Of a stretch of 64,000 nucleotides of DNA, positions 33,001-63,000 are shown piece after piece. The first letter of the stretch is position 1. The number at the start of each line of letters is the position of its first letter. A program made the position numbers. The stretch lies in contig NC_088802.1 in NCBI RefSeq assembly GCF_011386835.1, positions 8,680,001 through 8,744,000 on the forward strand, written 5' to 3'. This stretch comes from Chrysemys picta bellii (lineage: Eukaryota).

Positions 33001-36000
33001 TCTTAAAGAGACTCGAGGGAGAAAAATTGGCTACTGTCTGGCAGCCTCCCCCCCCGGCTTCTGGGACCCTAGGCCCACCTTCACCTGAGCAGAGCAGGTC
33101 TAAGAGGACCCAAAGGACCCCTCCGCTTGCTACAGCAAAATCCCAACCCCCCACATGGGACATGACTTAGTCCCCCAACCGCTGTGTCTTTTTCCTTCCT
33201 CATCAACACTGCTGTGAGCCTGCAGCCAGAGAGGTGGCCTGAACCGCCCATTGCTGGCACAAGTTTGCCAGGTGGTGGAGCTGCTGATCAACCCCCCACT
33301 GGGCCCATGCTGCTGTGGTACCGGAGGTTGCAAGTGCCAAACCCTGCACCCCGTTCTACATGGTTCAGCCTTTCCCTCTCTGTGGCAGTAACACAGATGG
33401 ACCCATCCCAGTCAACCTTTTGCCCCATGTTTGTCACGAGTTGTGGGGGCTCAGCCCAGCCTCCAGCAGGGCAGGCGCCCCCTTCCCACCAGCCACGTGG
33501 GCAGAAATGGCCCCAGCTCCCCTCTGCCCCCTTGAAGGAGTGAGTGGGCCAGACAGACACCCTCTGCTCCCAACCTCGCCGGCCATAATGAATCCCCACC
33601 CCCCGCACAATCAAAGCCACCACCAGCCACTTTTTTCCTTCCTGTTTTAATTGAATCCTGTCACACAGAAGCAGAAGGCGGCTCAAACCATCTTCGGAGC
33701 AGCTGGGGGGTGAGAAGAGTCCAGCAATGGGGCACAGTCCCCTCCCCACCTGGCCCAAAATAGACCAACCATCCTCCCCCCCCCCCTTCATATAAATAAC
33801 CGGTGGCCCTTCCCAGAAAGGAAGCGGGTGGCAAAAAAAAGAGCACCCCACCTTCACAGGTTTAGCCCCACCCCATCATTATAGCCACGCCTCCTCCGCT
33901 ATCCAGCTGCTCAAAAGTCCTGCTGCAAAGGGGCAGGCTGGTGAATGTAGAGTCCATCATGGGGGGGAGGAGCTTTGGGAGGCTCCGCCCCACCTCACTC
34001 GCGGGGCCGGTTGATGATGACCTCGCCCAGAGCCTCCAGCACCTCGCGCTTGTAGTCATCGAAGTCGCCGTCAATCTGCTCGACGCTCTGGTCCTCCACC
34101 ACCCACAGCTGGCAATTGGTCTCCGTGATCAGCCGGGCGTCGTGGCTCACAATGATGACGGCTGCAAGGGGAAGGGGGGGGTTAGGGGAGCAGGGGGATC
34201 CCCCATTCCAAGAGGTGGGAGATACCATCCCACAGACAGGGGAGATGGGGCATATGTTTGAGGGTATCGCCCAGGAAAATGCATGCTGGGTAGTTTGTGC
34301 AGGCCCTTTTGTGGGGTGGTGTCACTCGGTGAGGGCCATTATAGGAAGTGGTTTTTATCCCTAAATAACCAACCTCCTCCCCTCGGAACAGACCAATAGG
34401 GCCCATCCAACCTCGTATTCCCTCCCTTCCCCACGGAGCAGACCAATGGACCCATCCTGCCCGGAATTCCCAACCCAGTCCCAGCCACGGACCAGACCAA
34501 CAGATTCTTCTGGCCCAGAATTCCCTCTTCCCCACCCTTGGACCAGACCAATGGGCCGTTCCAGCCTGGAATTCCCTCCCCACTAGGCCAATGGGCCCAT
34601 CCAGCCCAAGCGCCCGCTGGCATCACTCACCCCCTTTGTACTCATTGATGGCATCAGCCAGGGCATCGATGGACTCGATATCCAGGTTATTGGTAGGTTC
34701 GTCCTGGGGAAGAGACAATGGGCTGAGATGGCGAAGGAGCAGATCCCAGAGAGAACCCAGGAGTCCGGACTCCCAGCACCTCCCTGTTCTAACCCAGTGG
34801 ACCCCACTCCCCTCCCAGAGTCGGGGATAGAACCCAGGAGTCCTGGCTCCCAGCCCCCGATTCTAACCTATGGGGCCTGGTGCTCTCCAGGGCCCTGTCC
34901 CACCCCTTGCCCCAGAGACACTCACCAGAATGAGGACGTCGGGCTCCCTGCAGGCCAGCTCGGCAAACACCACACGAGCCTTCTGGCCTCCTGGGGGGAA
35001 GGGAAAGAGTGGGGCAGGGTGAGGGATGAGACAGGGGAGCCCTCTCCCCACTTGTCTGCATCATCCCTCACCTTGGACAGCCAAGCCCTTCCCACCTCCA
35101 ACCTAAGCTGCTGGGTGCCCTCCCCCATCCCGTGCCCCCCACCTCTCCTGATTGCCCAGAACCTGGCCCTCTCCCCTCCCCCAACATAAGCCCCGGCCTC
35201 AACCCCCACCTCCCCTGGGTGCCCCCTCACTTCTCCAGACCCTGCTGCTTACTCTGTATACTCAACCCCAAGCCTTCCCTAGACCCCCCCCCCAAGGTCC
35301 CCCCAGCCCTGCCCCCTCCCCGAGGCCCCGCCCCCAGTACCGGAGAGCTTGCAGATCTGGATGGTGTGGGCGTGGCTCTCGAGGCCAAAGCGCCCCAGGC
35401 ACTTGCGGGCGTCCTGGTAGGGCAGGTTGAAGTTGCGCTGCAGGTACTCGGTCGCCGTCTCCTGCATGTTCAGCTGGTCGGCGTATTGCTGGTTAAAGAA
35501 GCCGATTTTCTACGGGGAGAGAGAAAGGGGCAGAGTCACCACCCAAAGCACCGCCCCCTTGCTGCTGGTTCCCACTCCCTGTCGCACCCCGGCTCTGCTG
35601 GTACTCCTCAATTGCATCCTGCAGCCCCCTGCTATCCCAGCCCTGGGCTCCCCCCACCCAGCTCTGCCAGTGCCCCCAATGCGCAGCCCCCTGCTATCCC
35701 AGCCCTGGGCTCCAATCCCAACCTGCAGCTCCCTGCTATCCCAGCCCTGGGCACCCCCCAACTCTGCCAGTGCCCCCAATCCTATTGTGCAGCCCCCCTG
35801 CTATCCCAGCCCTGGGCACCCCCCAGCTCTGCCAGTGCCCCCAATCCTATTGTGCAGCCCCCCTGCTATCCCAGCCCTGGGCTGTCCCCCAGCTCTGCTA
35901 GTGCCCCCCAATCCTATTGTGCAGCCCCCCTGCTATCCCAGCCCTGGGCTGTCCCCCAGCTCTGCTAGTGCCCCCCAATCCTGACTCGCAGTCCTCTGCA

Positions 36001-60000: not shown

Positions 60001-63000
60001 GCTGGCGGTGGACGGGCGCCTCTGCCTCTGTCTGCGGCCTCCCGGCTACTCCACTCAGAAAGGTACTGGGATGGGGAGGGGACTGCCCTCCCAGGGCATT
60101 GTGGGTATTTACCCAGCATCCCTCTGGGAGTCTGGGCAGGAGGACCAGATCCTACCAATCCAATGGAAGGTTGCCTATAATGGCCACGGGAGGGTGAGTA
60201 GCCAATGGCAAGTCGTGTTGGGCTAGTGATATTTCTACCCCGCTTGCCCCCCTCAGGGAAAGGCAGGAATGGCTGGGAATTCACCCCAGTGACTCGGCAC
60301 CATCCTCTATGACAGAATTTTAACCTCAGCCCCTGAGCGAAAGGCTGATGAGTTTTTAAGGCTCGTTTATCCCGATATCCAACCTATTCAGAATTCTAAA
60401 ATCCTTCCCTCGCCACCTCGGCCATTATTGATGCTGTTGATATTTAGAGCAAGATCCAACGGCTGGAAGTTGACGCCAGACGGATTCAGGGTGGAAAGAC
60501 ATATGTTTTGAACAGTGAGGGGCATTGGGGCAATTTACCAAGGGCCGTGGTGGGTCACGGGCAGCTTTTAAATCAACATTGGATGTTTTCAAAGGGCTGC
60601 TCTGGTTCACACGCTTAAACCAGGGCCTGTGTTATGCAGGAGGTCGGGCGAGAGGATGTTGGCCTGGGAATTCGTTAATGAAGTTAGCGAGCAATGATTT
60701 TCCCCAAGGAGTAGTTTAGGAACAGTTCATAAACTCACTGATGGGCCATGTGCTGAAGACAGTTACATCAATAGTTACTCATTGCTAACGAGTCTCCGCT
60801 CCTTTGAATTCAAAATAAGTTTACGAATGATAATCAGTAGTAGTTAACAGTGACTGCTTTCTTCGTTCTCGCCACAGAAGCGTGCTGTATAAATATGTTA
60901 CCGTTCATGTACTCGTGTGTTATGGTGAGCGTGTGTGTGCACTTATAGAAAATCTAAGAGATGAGTGAAAATCAGAATTACCATTAGGCAGGAGATTCTG
61001 ATATTTTGCCTTTTTTTCTTTTTATATTGAATCAGGTTGAAAAATCAAAAAAATTTTGCAGATGGTTTTGGGGTCTAGTGGTTACAGCAGAGGGTCTGGG
61101 TGTCAGGACTCCTGGGTTCTATCCCCAGCTGTGGGAGGGGAGTGGGGGTCTCATGGGTTGGAGTGGGGGGGCTGGGAGTCAGGATTCCCTGGGTTCTAGT
61201 CCTGGCTCTGGGAGGAGAGTGGGGTCTAGTGGTTTGAGCATGGTGGTTTACCCTCGCAGCCCACCCCTGACCATCCGTCTGTCCCCCTCAGCTATGTGGG
61301 AGCACCATCCCGAGACAGCAGAGATCGCCGCCCTGCAGGAGGCTCACCGCAAGCACAGCCGGCGCAGTTCAGAGGAAGAGGAGGAGGAAGAAGAGGAGAT
61401 ATCCAGCTCTGGGGAGGAGGAGGATGAGGAGAAGGACCGTGATGCCGATGAGGAAGAGGAGGAGGAGGAGGAAGAACCAGCTGCCTCCAGTGGAGGAGGG
61501 AGCAGCGCCCCAGCCCAGGCCCCACCCAGGAGGGTGCTGAAGGGGAAACTCTCAAGCCAGAACTTGTTTGCTTTGCTGGGGGAGGACGAATGTTAGTGGC
61601 TCCCCCTGTTGGACAGATTGAGAAAAGGGGGGGAGGAGGGCCTGGCTACAGGCTCCACCCCCTGCCCCTGTTACAGGCTCCGCCCCCTGCCCTGGCTGAG
61701 CTCCGCCCCCCCCCCATTCTCCATGTTCATTCCAATGCTCTATAGCCTCTGTATATGAATAAAGGTGATGTTTATTTCCAGACCCCGCCTCCGTCATTGG
61801 CCGGGACACTGGTCTCCCTCCCCAGCCATTGGTCCATCTATCCTGGGATCTCCACCGCCCGGCTGCATCACACCAGTGGGCTCATCTAGCCTAGTATCCC
61901 GCCCCTTCAGATAAGATCCATGGGTCCATGTAGTTCAATATCCCAGCCTGGTCCTTGCTGCCCTGGCTCAGAGCAGTGGTCTCTGCTCGGGCCTGTTCAT
62001 TTTGGATCATTTCTATCCATCAAAAAGGCTTCTTCCTTTTAGTCTTCAAACCTTGGTTTTGCTGCAGAAGCATCCTGCTCCCCATTTGCCTGTGGAACTC
62101 CCTACCACAGTATTCTCGCCCATACTGCTCATGGAAGTAGAGAGCAAAGGATAACTCGGTCTTACAGCCCATGCGTTGGATCCCTTCAGCTGTTTATTTT
62201 TCCAGGAGTTTCTTCCGCTCGCCTCAGGGCATCCTCCCAGTCTGCCGTGGGGCAACTGTTGAACTTCAGTCTGCTTGTTGTGTTTATTGTGCGGCTTTGA
62301 CACATCCAGCAAATCACCAAGAGGGCTTAGTATTAGATGTATTAGGGCAACACGTAGAGGCCACAGCTGAGATGAGGGCCCCGTTGTGCCAGGTGCTGCA
62401 CAGACACACACGGAGAGACAGTCCCTGCCCCAGCTGAGATCAGGGCCCCGTTGCGCCAGGCGCTGCACAGACACACGGAGAGACAGGCCCTGCACCAGCT
62501 GAGATCAGAAAAACTTTACAAAGAAAAAAAGTCTGTTAAATCTCCACTGCACTGTAAACTAAGGGGAACCTGCACCGCCCCAGGCTCATTCTCGGATCTG
62601 ATGGAACAGACAGGAGTGAGGTGAAGACAGCAAACTGGGGGAAATGCACCGTGAAGCAGAGAGCCACTCCCACGTGCAAGCAAATGCTGGCTTTGCTGAA
62701 ATATCTGCTCCCGAGGTGGAAGCGAGGACCGATCGCTGGGGCTCTGTTTGGGCAGCATTGAAACCCCTTTCCCCTCGGGCAAACTGGTCACCTGGGACTC
62801 ACCACCCCTGCCCCTTGTCTTGTTAGAAATACTCTTTTGTGAGTGCCCTGACAGCAGCCCAAAGCAGGGGCGCCGGAATTACTGGCCTTAAGTGCGAGCG
62901 ACTGGCGGGGTGGGCCTCAGGGCGAAGAGGCAGCATCAGGGTGGGGCCTCAGGGGGATGGGATGGCATGAGGGGGTGGGGCCATGGTTCAGGTGCCCATG

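What the first reader, a model, noticed from the sequence alone, without database searches (positions are those of the whole stretch)
34385..62510. Fragments of five ancient retroposon families appear re-amplified as GC-rich 50-90 nt arrays
Seen in sequence: distinct short units recur in tandem and dispersed form throughout the GC-rich introns. By recalled consensus they match the MIR tRNA head (about 70 nt, dozens of copies), the LF-SINE head (55695-55890, 56940-57210), an AmnSINE1 Deu segment (59130-59885), the CR1 3'UTR stem (34385-34612, 43700-43890) and the L2 3' end (47625-47745, 62365-62510). Plain single copies of the same families sit in the AT-rich intron. Inference: a secondary amplification process (slippage or ectopic conversion with GC bias) recycles dead elements into minisatellites in GC-rich turtle chromatin. 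I do not know of a description of this as one phenomenon.
Basis: partly seen in the sequence, partly recalled or inferred. Interest (0 to 1): 0.65.

Follow-up and report, generated by a model that had tools for sequence, protein, structure and literature searches.

The report
Old SINE pieces with built-in repeats
The GC-rich introns of this gene cluster hold old, decayed short retroposon copies that mostly carried their tandem units when they inserted, and only a few arrays grew in place, so this is a known kind of repeat behaviour, not a new process.

Summary
The short tandem and dispersed units are real at all eight stated coordinate ranges. TRF finds 9 arrays of period 45-95, against 0 in each of 20 shuffles.

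Six dispersed families occupy 60 loci.
- The main family has 52 units at 27 loci. It is a pol III head with a B box, and in some loci it runs into a MIR-type core.
- Heads come 1-4 per locus, most often 2.
- Units within a locus are no more alike than units between loci.
- The same 24-nt linker joins heads in 15 of 18 multi-head loci.

So the tandem heads were most likely carried by the source element and were not made locally.

True local growth is shown clearly for one array, 59159-59893: nine units, with pairs up to 98% identical. Three others show it more weakly.

On the family names:
- MIR head: supported.
- L2-like tail: plausible.
- A 5S-headed SINE: hinted only.
- LF-SINE and CR1: not supported by the tests I could run.

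TE-derived tandem repeats are already described in humans and squamates. My verdict is partly supported, and the finding is a new member of a known kind.

The parts
2234..2356 (-). family A: 2 tandem tRNA-like (pol III) heads
   Evidence: shared linker
2818..2957 (-). family A: 2 heads, last one runs into a MIR-like core
14432..14509 (+). family A in the AT-rich intron: 2 partial heads followed by a MIR-like core
22888..22979 (+). family A: 2 heads
34749..34873 (-). family A: 2 heads; they fill most of a short ABCF1 intron
40885..41045 (-). family A: 3 heads (TRF 72 nt x 2.0)
42826..42933 (-). family A: 2 heads
43899..44123 (-). family A: 3 heads
44722..44935 (-). family A: 4 heads (TRF 68 nt x 2.9)
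45314..45546 (-). family A: 3 heads
46596..46705 (-). family A: 2 heads
48014..48132 (-). family A: 2 heads
50634..50774 (+). family A: 2 heads
54028..54160 (-). family A: 2 heads, last one runs into a MIR-like core
56478..56706 (-). family A: 3 heads (TRF 82 nt x 2.6)
57269..57376 (-). family A: 2 heads
58662..58791 (+). family A: 2 heads, followed by a MIR-like core
61069..61246 (+). family A: 3 heads
59159..59893 (+). family B: array of about 9 units of 85 nt that fills one intron; grown in place; 7 CTCF-consensus-like motifs
27396..27560 (+). family B: about 2 units
43414..43531 (-). family B: about 1.5 units, directly beside a family D copy
44311..44451 (-). family B: about 1.5 units
52961..53097 (+). 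family B: about 1.5 units
57537..57609 (-). family B: one unit directly 3' of a 5S-rRNA-like stretch (57611-57735)
   Evidence: Rfam 5S model found nothing here
56967..57197 (+). family C: about 3 units (TRF 79 nt x 2.4); some sign of local growth
54671..54823 (-). family C: about 2 units; shares a further 3' stretch with the copy at 39978-40109
39978..40109 (+). family C: about 1.5 units
47753..47900 (-). head (with B box at 47823-47833) and core of that MIR-like element
62364..62507 (-). family E: 2.2 tandem copies of the same tail segment with the same unit junction; no head or core upstream
43714..43793 (+). family F: 2 units (a third degenerate one follows by eye)
37723..37807 (+). family F: 2 units
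61826..61897 (+). family F: 2 units
1238..1301 (+). family F: single unit that runs on into unique sequence
35587..36020 (.). locus-specific minisatellite (65 nt x 3.9, 95% matches) with no match to any family
48880..49300 (.). C-rich short repeats near the 5' end of ABCF1, no family match
51394..51522 (.). 57-nt repeats just upstream of the GNL1-like start, no family match
51715..51972 (.). 30-37-nt repeats. The first ones overlap the GNL1-like first exon and the rest lie in its first intron; only chance-level likeness to family A
54843..54955 (+). decayed 5S-rRNA-like stretch
   Evidence: Rfam 5S_rRNA, whole model, 16.4 bits, E 0.36 in a 151-nt search, below the gathering score of 38
15943..16119 (+). 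LF-SINE-type conserved element in the AT-rich intron; not part of any array family
   Evidence: uc_338, 86.2 bits, E 1.8e-19, below gathering 120

Best explanation
Setting. The window is a gene-dense, GC-rich cluster: PPP1R10 on the plus strand and ABCF1 on the minus strand, with MRPS18B-like and GNL1-like genes at the sides. Its short introns are largely made of old copies of at least six short dispersed repeats.

The main family. It is the pol III head (tRNA-like, with a B box) of a MIR-type SINE. I think its source element or elements carried several heads in tandem in front of one MIR core. Retrocopies then received 1 to 4 heads, depending on where transcription began or where reverse transcription stopped. 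This step is inferred. Since insertion the copies have simply decayed, to about 14% from their consensus.

The other families behave alike: B (possibly from a 5S-headed SINE), C, D, F and the L2-like tail E. Their dispersed copies have 1-3 units each.

Local growth. On top of this, ordinary slippage or unequal exchange has lengthened a few arrays in place. It has also made minisatellites from DNA with no retroposon match. This fits a general proneness of the GC-rich DNA to tandem duplication.
For: Shown for the main family.
- 52 head units lie at 27 loci. Heads per locus are 1 (9 loci), 2 (12), 3 (5) and 4 (1).
- The B-box pattern GGTTCNANNCC gives 20 hits against 3.2 expected, and 17 of the 20 lie in these units.
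- In 7 of 27 loci the last head runs into a MIR-like core by eye.
- A recalled 12-mer of that core falls within 110 nt downstream of a head locus in 4 of 22 hits. Those positions make up 2.3% of the window.
- Within-locus identity is 0.807 (13 pairs) against 0.785 between loci (617 pairs), permutation p 0.11. None of 20 units has its nearest neighbour in its own locus. This used the 36 of 50 units with at least 45 model positions; 14 partial units were dropped.
- In tRNA phase the figures are 0.781 within a locus, 0.766 for the same position class and 0.766 for a different class. No column is specific to position.
- One 24-nt linker, allowing up to 6 mismatches, gives 26 hits against 0-1 in each of 20 shuffles. 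24 of them lie in head loci, and 15 of 18 multi-head loci have it.
- Divergence from the family consensus is 333 of 2439 positions.

Shown for the other families and arrays.
- Both family E loci share the same unit junction.
- In the family B array, within-array identity is 0.907, 9 of 9 nearest neighbours lie inside it, and pairs reach 0.98. The other family B loci have 0 of 6.
- Arrays with no family match are at 35587-36020, 48880-49300 and 51160-52150.

Literature.
- Painted-turtle SINEs are 'predominantly MIR-like' (PMC4054807, passage).
- MIR has an L2-like 3' region (PMC5753468, passage).
Against: - No library of eukaryotic repeats (Dfam, Repbase) was on hand, so no unit was aligned to a curated MIR, L2, AmnSINE1, LF-SINE or CR1 consensus.
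- ARAGORN found 0 tRNAs.
- Rfam gave no tRNA hit, either in the whole window or in 56400-57760 alone.
- 20 of 27 head loci show no recognisable MIR core after the last head. An HMM of the core recovered only its own 9 seed copies plus one weak hit.
- Equal identity within and between loci cannot separate 'tandem heads in the source' from 'duplication at or soon after insertion'. Only the shared linker argues for the source.
- No position-specific differences between heads were found. A long-lived dimeric master might have shown some.
- Family E units are slightly more alike within a locus (90.5%) than between loci (85-86%), with only two loci.
- Target-site duplications could not be looked for, because the 3' ends of most copies are undefined.
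- The species was not verified.
Confidence: 0.6

Rival explanations
1. Dead copies of several ancient retroposons are re-amplified after insertion into 50-90-nt minisatellites, by slippage or GC-biased ectopic conversion that is specific to GC-rich chromatin.
For: - The 59159-59893 array clearly grew in place.
- Weaker signs of local growth: 56967-57197 (0.857 within against 0.713 between), 34377-34572 (0.775 against 0.661) and 35724-35982 (95% matches).
- The families concentrate in GC-rich DNA: 56 of 60 loci lie outside the AT-rich block.
- Substitutions in head units lean to G/C in the GC-rich part. W>S is 0.125 per W site and S>W is 0.102 per S site. In the AT block the figures are 0.054 and 0.12, from only 148 sites.
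Against: - The commonest family shows no excess likeness within loci.
- It has one shared inter-unit linker in 15 of 18 multi-head loci. Independent local duplications should not give that.
- The dispersed family B loci do not cluster locally: 0 of 6 nearest neighbours lie in the same locus.
- Minisatellites with no family match occur in the same DNA.
Confidence: 0.2
2. The repeats are kept because they work. One version is as CTCF-type binding sites. Another is as G-rich intronic elements that help define very short GC-rich introns.
For: - The recalled CTCF consensus, with up to 1 mismatch, gives 15 hits against 1.68 expected. 14 of the 15 lie in family B or C loci, and 7 in the one array.
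- 21 of 25 genic head loci lie in the sense orientation of the host gene, binomial p 0.0009.
- The sense strand is G-rich in ABCF1: skew 0.157, or 0.124 with repeats masked.
Against: - No binding, expression or conservation data were available.
- The copies differ by about 22% from each other, as expected for neutral decay.
- The strands of two of the four genes rest on my reading of exons, not on a search.
- In the GNL1-like gene 4 of 6 head loci are antisense.
Confidence: 0.12
3. The arrays are assembly artefacts, that is, collapsed or mis-joined repeats.
For: Nothing specific. Short tandem arrays are a known weak point of assemblies (general knowledge).
Against: - The window has no N.
- Units in the arrays differ from each other by 2-20%.
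- Exons with open frames flank the arrays in the expected order.
Confidence: 0.03

Closest known systems
SINE-derived satellites (sSat) of squamate reptiles (Vassetzky, Kosushkin and Ryskov 2023, PMC10702118; abstract, Background and Discussion read)
   Same: - Portions of tRNA-related SINEs occur as tandem units.
- Typically there is a longer terminal unit that runs on to the SINE end.
- Many loci have only a few units.
- The authors describe a range from SINEs with internal duplications to satellite-like arrays, and propose initial duplication followed by local amplification.
   Different: - That work covers Squam1-3 SINEs in squamates, with arrays of up to about 1000 units and a subtelomeric preference.
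- Here the species is probably a turtle, and the family is MIR-like.
- Arrays have at most 4 heads, or 9 units for family B.
- The tandem heads seem to have been dispersed as such.
- The authors say it is uncertain whether such satellites exist outside squamates. Their supplementary figures could not be seen.
TE-derived minisatellites and satellites of the human genome (Ahmed and Liang 2012, PMC3389668; abstract read)
   Same: It treats tandem repeats born from many TE families as one phenomenon. The abstract gives 23% of human minisatellites and satellites as TE-derived, and says they expand by local duplication once started.
   Different: - It concerns the human genome.
- The abstract says younger, more active TEs are the more likely source. 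Here the copies are old.
MIR / CORE-SINE family with an L2-like 3' region (PMC5753468, passages; painted turtle SINEs 'predominantly MIR-like', PMC4054807, passage)
   Same: - The head is tRNA-related with a B box.
- A core with the recalled MIR signature follows in some loci.
- One element (47628-47900) has head, core and a tail that by recall resembles the L2/MIR 3' end.
   Different: - Canonical MIR has one head. Here 18 of 27 loci have 2-4 heads.
- No alignment to a curated MIR consensus was possible.
Dimeric and multimeric SINEs, such as Alu and tandem Dip/B1 (as summarised in the Discussion of PMC10702118)
   Same: Pol III modules are joined head to tail and spread by retroposition as one unit.
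   Different: Those are dimers of whole SINE monomers. Here only the ~70-nt head is multiplied in front of one body, and the number varies from 1 to 4.
SINE-borne CTCF sites in mammals, such as B2 (Schmidt et al. 2012, PMC3368268; search listing and start of abstract only)
   Same: A dispersed short retroposon carries a CTCF-type motif to many places.
   Different: Only a motif match is shown here. Binding is untested, and the families B and C are unidentified.

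Membership tests
MIR (tRNA-headed CORE-SINE with L2-like tail) | tRNA-related pol III head with box B | tested here: met
   - GGTTCNANNCC gives 20 hits against 3.2 expected, and 17 of the 20 lie in family A units.
- The strict box A pattern is at chance level, and none of its 11 hits lies in a head unit.
- The box patterns are recalled consensus motifs.
MIR (tRNA-headed CORE-SINE with L2-like tail) | recognised as tRNA-like by tRNA models | tested here: not met
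   ARAGORN found 0 genes. Rfam gave no tRNA hit at E up to 10, either in the window or in 56400-57760. This is expected for decayed SINE heads, so it weighs little.
MIR (tRNA-headed CORE-SINE with L2-like tail) | CORE domain directly after the head | tested here: inconclusive
   - It is seen by eye in 7 of 27 loci.
- A recalled 12-mer lies within 110 nt downstream of a head locus in 4 of 22 hits, against 2.3% of positions.
- A recalled 26-mer gave 1 hit, at 1466-1491, which is not beside a family A locus.
- 20 of 27 loci show no core.
MIR (tRNA-headed CORE-SINE with L2-like tail) | alignment to the curated consensus (Dfam or Repbase) | not testable with these tools
   No eukaryotic repeat library is held, and sequence from memory may not be used.
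L2 3' end | the unit is the 3' tail of an L2-dependent SINE or of L2 itself | tested here: inconclusive
   - Family E at 47628-47752 lies directly 3' of a head with a B box and a core on the same strand.
- That MIR shares its 3' region with L2 comes from PMC5753468 (passage).
- No L2 sequence was available to align.
- No reverse-transcriptase domain was found in the 150 reading frames of at least 55 aa from 1-20907. Those were 150 of the window's 629.
AmnSINE1 (SINE3: 5S-rRNA head, Deu domain) | 5S-rRNA-derived head joined to the unit | tested here: inconclusive
   - One family B unit (57537-57609) follows a stretch with an exact recalled 5S 15-mer and a 12-mer with 1 mismatch. The Rfam 5S model finds nothing there.
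- The Rfam 5S model does match 54843-54955 weakly (16.4 bits, E 0.36), but no family B unit adjoins it.
- An HMM of the two 5S-like stretches touches family B units only weakly, at E 1.8-9, with 0.052 at 53011-53084.
AmnSINE1 (SINE3: 5S-rRNA head, Deu domain) | the unit is a piece of the Deu domain | tested here: inconclusive
   - Family B has no hit at E up to 100 on the in-window LF-SINE-type element and its flanks.
- That LF-SINE and AmnSINE1 share the Deu domain is recalled.
- Whether the uc_338 part covers that domain is unknown.
LF-SINE (tRNA-headed, PMC5753468 table) | tRNA-derived head with box B in the claimed 'head' units | tested here: not met
   None of the 20 B-box hits lies in a family C locus.
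LF-SINE (tRNA-headed, PMC5753468 table) | likeness to a known LF-SINE-derived sequence | tested here: not met
   - Rfam uc_338 matches 15943-16119 (E 1.8e-19) and nothing else in the window, the family C arrays included.
- The family C HMM has no hit at E up to 100 on 15600-16600.
- Basis for the link: uc.338 lies in PCBP2 (PMC9829027, passage), and PCBP2 has an LF-SINE-derived exon (PMC9148063, passage). That the two are the same element is recalled.
- The test misses the head if that copy has lost it.
CR1 3' UTR | terminal hairpin motif and 8-nt microsatellite tail | tested here: not met
   - The recalled 14-mer of the hairpin gives 2 hits against 1.55 expected. One of them lies in a family F unit, with 2 mismatches.
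- The recalled double 8-mer gives 0 hits with up to 3 mismatches.
- No CR1 copy was found in the window to compare with.
SINE-derived tandem repeats (sSat-like, PMC10702118) | tandem units that match part of a SINE, with a terminal unit running on into the rest of the SINE | tested here: met
   Family A: the last head continues into the core in 7 of 27 loci. Family E: the tail units continue to the element end.
SINE-derived tandem repeats (sSat-like, PMC10702118) | units amplified locally, so more alike within a locus than between loci | tested here: inconclusive
   Met for the family B array (0.907 against 0.777; 9 of 9). Not met for family A (0.807 against 0.785; 0 of 20) or for the other family B loci (0 of 6).

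The most novel reading that the evidence does not exclude
- A turtle MIR-type SINE whose source locus carried a tandem array of pol III heads would be a 'multi-promoter' master. Retrocopies would then carry 1-4 heads joined by one fixed linker.
- It may work together with unidentified GC-rich repeats (families B and C, perhaps from a 5S-headed SINE). These have spread CTCF-type motifs through the introns of a conserved gene cluster.
- Both lie with a strong sense-strand bias. That would point to selection on how these elements sit in very short GC-rich introns.
Probability: 0.15. Interest if true: 0.55.

Novelty: new member of a known kind. Interest (0 to 1): 0.3.

Why it matters
- If the reading holds, the tandem look of these introns is mostly inherited from the retroposons themselves. 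It is not evidence for a special recycling process in GC-rich chromatin.
- That matters for repeat annotation in turtles. Multi-head SINE copies and their short arrays would be mis-scored as minisatellites, or as several insertions.
- It also matters for dating, because the number of units says little about local mutation.
- The side observations would be worth a genome-wide look: the CTCF-type motifs in two repeat families, and the sense-strand bias of the heads.

Tried and rejected
- ARAGORN found no tRNA.
- Rfam at gathering thresholds found nothing.
- Rfam at E up to 10 gave no tRNA or 5S hit on the whole window or on 56400-57760. It gave one weak 5S hit on 54825-54975 and none on 57600-57745.
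- Pfam was run on 150 of the window's 629 reading frames of at least 55 aa (those in 1-20907), to find LINE reverse transcriptase as an in-window reference. It gave one weak DUF1951 hit and no LINE reverse-transcriptase or other relevant domain.
- Pfam on 16 further frames chosen for gene naming gave none. The other 463 frames were not scanned.
- A single-copy seed for the MIR body found only itself. A nine-copy seed recovered only its seeds plus one weak hit.
- Comparing the two 5S-like stretches with each other showed only the shared 15-mer.
- Families D and Dx against the LF-SINE-type region gave a 13-nt match of 4.4 bits, while shuffles reach 5.0, so I rejected it.
- The PDB sequence search with the GNL1-like exon found nothing.
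- One literature search was rejected for a slash in a term and was not repeated.
- I considered independent young SINE insertions and rejected it. Pairwise identity of about 0.78 and 14% divergence from consensus speak for old copies.
- Complex prediction, structure prediction and the large protein searches were not used, because they do not bear on non-coding repeats.

Full report
SETTING

The window has no N. GC is 0.39-0.42 in 6-16 kb and 18-20 kb, and 0.52-0.64 almost everywhere else.

Single exons, searched one at a time, identify two genes.
- ABCF1 lies on the minus strand (35339-35509; PDB 5zxd, E 2.3e-31).
- PPP1R10 lies on the plus strand (21331-21462; E 7e-20).
- From my own reading of translations and from recall, an MRPS18B-like gene lies on the minus strand at the left. 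A GNL1-like gene starts near 51.7 kb on the plus strand. A PDB search with one of its exons found nothing.

Nothing here was taken for human. I did not verify the species.

Yes. TRF reports arrays of 57-85 nt units at 35724-36015, 40903-41045, 44746-44933, 51394-51522, 56461-56677, 56962-57148, 59185-59886 (85 nt x 8.3) and 62364-62508. The window has 9 arrays of period 45-95. Twenty shuffles that keep dinucleotides within 2-kb blocks have none.

A self-comparison gave 882 non-self matches in 69 intervals. These fall into four multi-locus groups and some pairs. From them I built nhmmer profiles using window sequence only.

| Family | Units | Loci |
|---|---|---|
| A | 50 (52 when re-phased) | 27 |
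| B | 22 hits | 10 |
| C | 10 hits | 8 |
| D | 11 hits | 8 |
| E | - | 2 |
| F | 7 hits | 5 |

The profiles for B and C are longer than one unit (97 and 157 positions), so their unit counts are approximate. Arrays of period 45-95 cover 1970 of the 28126 bases of the stated span. All families plus the locus-specific arrays cover 8588 bases of the window.

THE MAIN FAMILY (A)

In tRNA phase the unit is about 64-72 nt.
- It carries a B box. The pattern GGTTCNANNCC, a recalled consensus, gives 20 hits against 3.2 expected, and 17 of them lie in these units.
- The strict box A pattern is at chance.
- ARAGORN and Rfam do not call the units tRNA. That is usual for decayed SINE heads.
- In 7 of 27 loci the last head runs into a stretch that I recognise as a MIR core.
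- A recalled 12-mer of that core falls within 110 nt downstream of a head locus, on the same strand, in 4 of 22 hits. Those positions make up 2.3% of the window.
- In the other 20 loci I could not show a core. An HMM of the core found only its own seeds and one weak extra hit.

Heads per locus are 1 (9 loci), 2 (12), 3 (5) and 4 (1).

LOCAL GROWTH OR INHERITED STRUCTURE?

For family A I took the 36 of 50 units with at least 45 model positions.
- Identity within a locus is 0.807 (13 pairs).
- Identity between loci is 0.785 (617 pairs), permutation p 0.11.
- None of 20 units has its nearest neighbour in its own locus.

In tRNA phase the picture is the same: 0.781 within loci, 0.766 between loci for the same position class and 0.766 for different classes. 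No column distinguishes last heads from upstream heads.

A 24-nt linker between successive heads, taken by coordinates from one locus, recurs 26 times with at most 6 mismatches, against 0-1 in each of 20 shuffles. 24 of the hits lie in head loci, and 15 of 18 multi-head loci have it. Independent local duplications would give different junctions.

I therefore infer that the tandem heads were already present in the source element or elements. The variable number would then come from the point where transcription began or where reverse transcription stopped. That last step is inference. About half of the first units begin within the first 12 model positions, and the rest begin later. The copies are old: 333 of 2439 aligned positions differ from the family consensus.

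THE OTHER FAMILIES

- It has ten loci. One is the array 59159-59893, which nearly fills a GNL1-like intron.
- There the units are 0.907 alike, against 0.777 to other loci. All 9 have their nearest neighbour in the array, and some pairs reach 0.97-0.98. This array grew in place.
- In the other three multi-unit B loci, 0 of 6 units has its nearest neighbour in the same locus.

It has eight loci. The three-unit array at 56967-57197 is 0.857 alike within, against 0.713 between. Two copies share a further 3' stretch, so the element is longer than the repeated unit.

It has five loci of 1-5 units of about 50 nt. At 1238-1301 a single unit runs on into unique sequence.

- At 47628-47752 two tandem 67-nt units lie directly 3' of a head with a B box and a core on the same strand. 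Together they form one full MIR-like element, 47628-47900.
- The second locus, 62364-62507, has the same unit junction but no head.
- Its units are 90.5% alike within the locus and 85-86% alike between loci. With two loci this decides nothing.

It has eight loci of 1-2 units. At three of them a B copy lies within 170 nt, in the same relative order and on the opposite strand. B and D may therefore be parts of one composite element.

THE FIVE NAMES

No eukaryotic repeat library was on hand. Genome-wide copies and curated consensus sequences therefore stayed unchecked.

- MIR head: supported, as set out above.
- L2-like tail: consistent with the layout at 47628-47900. That MIR shares its 3' region with L2 comes from PMC5753468 (passage).
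- 5S-headed SINE for family B: hinted only.
  - One B unit follows a stretch with an exact recalled 5S 15-mer and a near-exact 12-mer. Rfam's 5S model finds nothing there.
  - The same model matches 54843-54955 weakly (16.4 bits, E 0.36 in a 151-nt search, gathering score 38). No B unit adjoins that stretch.
- LF-SINE for family C: not supported.
  - Rfam's uc_338 model matches 15943-16119 in the AT-rich intron (86.2 bits, E 1.8e-19, below gathering 120) and nowhere else.
  - uc.338 lies in PCBP2 (PMC9829027, passage), and PCBP2 has an LF-SINE-derived exon (PMC9148063, passage). That the two are the same element is my recollection.
  - Neither C nor B, E or F has any hit at E up to 100 on 15600-16600.
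  - C has no B box.
- CR1 for family F: not supported.
  - The recalled hairpin 14-mer is at chance, 2 hits against 1.55 expected.
  - The recalled 8-mer tail is absent.
  - No reverse-transcriptase domain turned up in the 150 frames scanned from 1-20907, which are 150 of the window's 629.

GC CONTEXT

Only 4 of 60 loci (3 of A, 1 of D) lie in the 14-kb AT-rich block. Repeat fraction rises with the GC of the unmasked rest of each 2-kb bin (Spearman 0.57, p 7e-4; the bins are neighbours, not independent).

In head units the substitution pattern leans to G/C in the GC-rich part and to A/T in the AT block. The AT block offers only 148 sites. This fits a GC-biased substitution regime. It does not show GC-biased amplification.

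Minisatellites with no match to any family lie in the same DNA, at 35587-36020, 48880-49300, 51160-51700 and 51800-52150. Tandem duplication here is therefore not specific to retroposon remains.

WHAT IS KNOWN

- Tandem repeats born from many TE families are described as one phenomenon in the human genome: 23% of minisatellites and satellites (PMC3389668, abstract).
- Portions of SINEs amplified as tandem units, with a terminal unit running into the SINE, are described in 56 squamate genomes. The authors also mention SINEs with internal duplications and SINEs that spread as dimers, and they say it is uncertain whether such satellites exist outside squamates (PMC10702118; abstract, Background and Discussion read).
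- Painted-turtle SINEs are 'predominantly MIR-like' (PMC4054807, passage). A review states that little is known of turtle TE diversity (PMC5381603, passage).
- Three searches found no paper on tandem-head MIR elements or SINE-derived arrays in turtles among their listed titles: terms turtle/MIR/SINE/tandem repeat, MIR/tRNA-related/tandem duplication/SINE/reptile and tandem repeats/MIR/minisatellite/GC-rich.
- A search on CTCF/turtle/SINE listed nothing on turtles.

VERDICT

Its central idea, a secondary amplification that recycles dead elements, is not supported for the bulk of the units. Two of the five names fail the tests I could run.

This is a new member of a known kind. Interest is modest. 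The most interesting leads are the fixed-linker multi-head architecture, the CTCF-type motifs in families B and C (15 hits against 1.68 expected, 14 in B or C loci), and the sense-strand bias of the heads (21 of 25 genic loci, p 0.0009).

Noticed in passing
15943-16119 (+): There is a full-length match to Rfam uc_338 (86.2 bits, E 1.8e-19, below gathering 120) inside the AT-rich PPP1R10 intron, in a local GC island. It is probably a conserved LF-SINE-type element. It is unrelated to the array families.
   Followed up: partly
39998-63563, mostly 59192-59795: Motifs like the CTCF consensus (recalled pattern, up to 1 mismatch) give 15 hits against 1.68 expected. 14 of the 15 lie in family B or C loci, and 7 in the single array 59159-59893.
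   Followed up: partly
27 family A loci across the window: 21 of 25 genic head loci lie in the sense orientation of their host gene (binomial p 0.0009). The 4 exceptions are all in the GNL1-like gene. The strands of two of the genes rest on my reading and on recall.
   Followed up: partly
34300-49000: The sense strand of ABCF1 is G-rich: GC skew is 0.157, and 0.124 after masking the repeat families.
   Followed up: partly
43316-43531, 37148-37498, 63139-63562: At three places a family D copy on one strand is followed within 170 nt by a family B copy on the other strand, in the same relative order. This suggests one composite element.
   Followed up: partly
20004-20094: A palindromic hairpin matches Rfam mir-1756 on both strands (52.2 and 49.4 bits, below gathering 100).
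   Followed up: no
14174-14371 and 47035-47279; 19765-19893 and 48433-48543: These are two further two-copy dispersed repeats, in inverted orientation to each other. The second is itself partly palindromic.
   Followed up: no
27983-28141: There are imperfect 12-33-nt G/C-rich repeats on the PPP1R10 strand that look like a coding low-complexity stretch. They are not related to the retroposon families.
   Followed up: no
40885-41045 and 46596-46705: In two ABCF1 introns the first head unit begins within about 0-15 nt of the exon's 5' splice site. This could be chance in such short introns.
   Followed up: no
4001-6000: CpG observed/expected is 0.67 here, against 0.14-0.45 elsewhere. This fits a shared promoter island between the MRPS18B-like gene and PPP1R10.
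   Followed up: no
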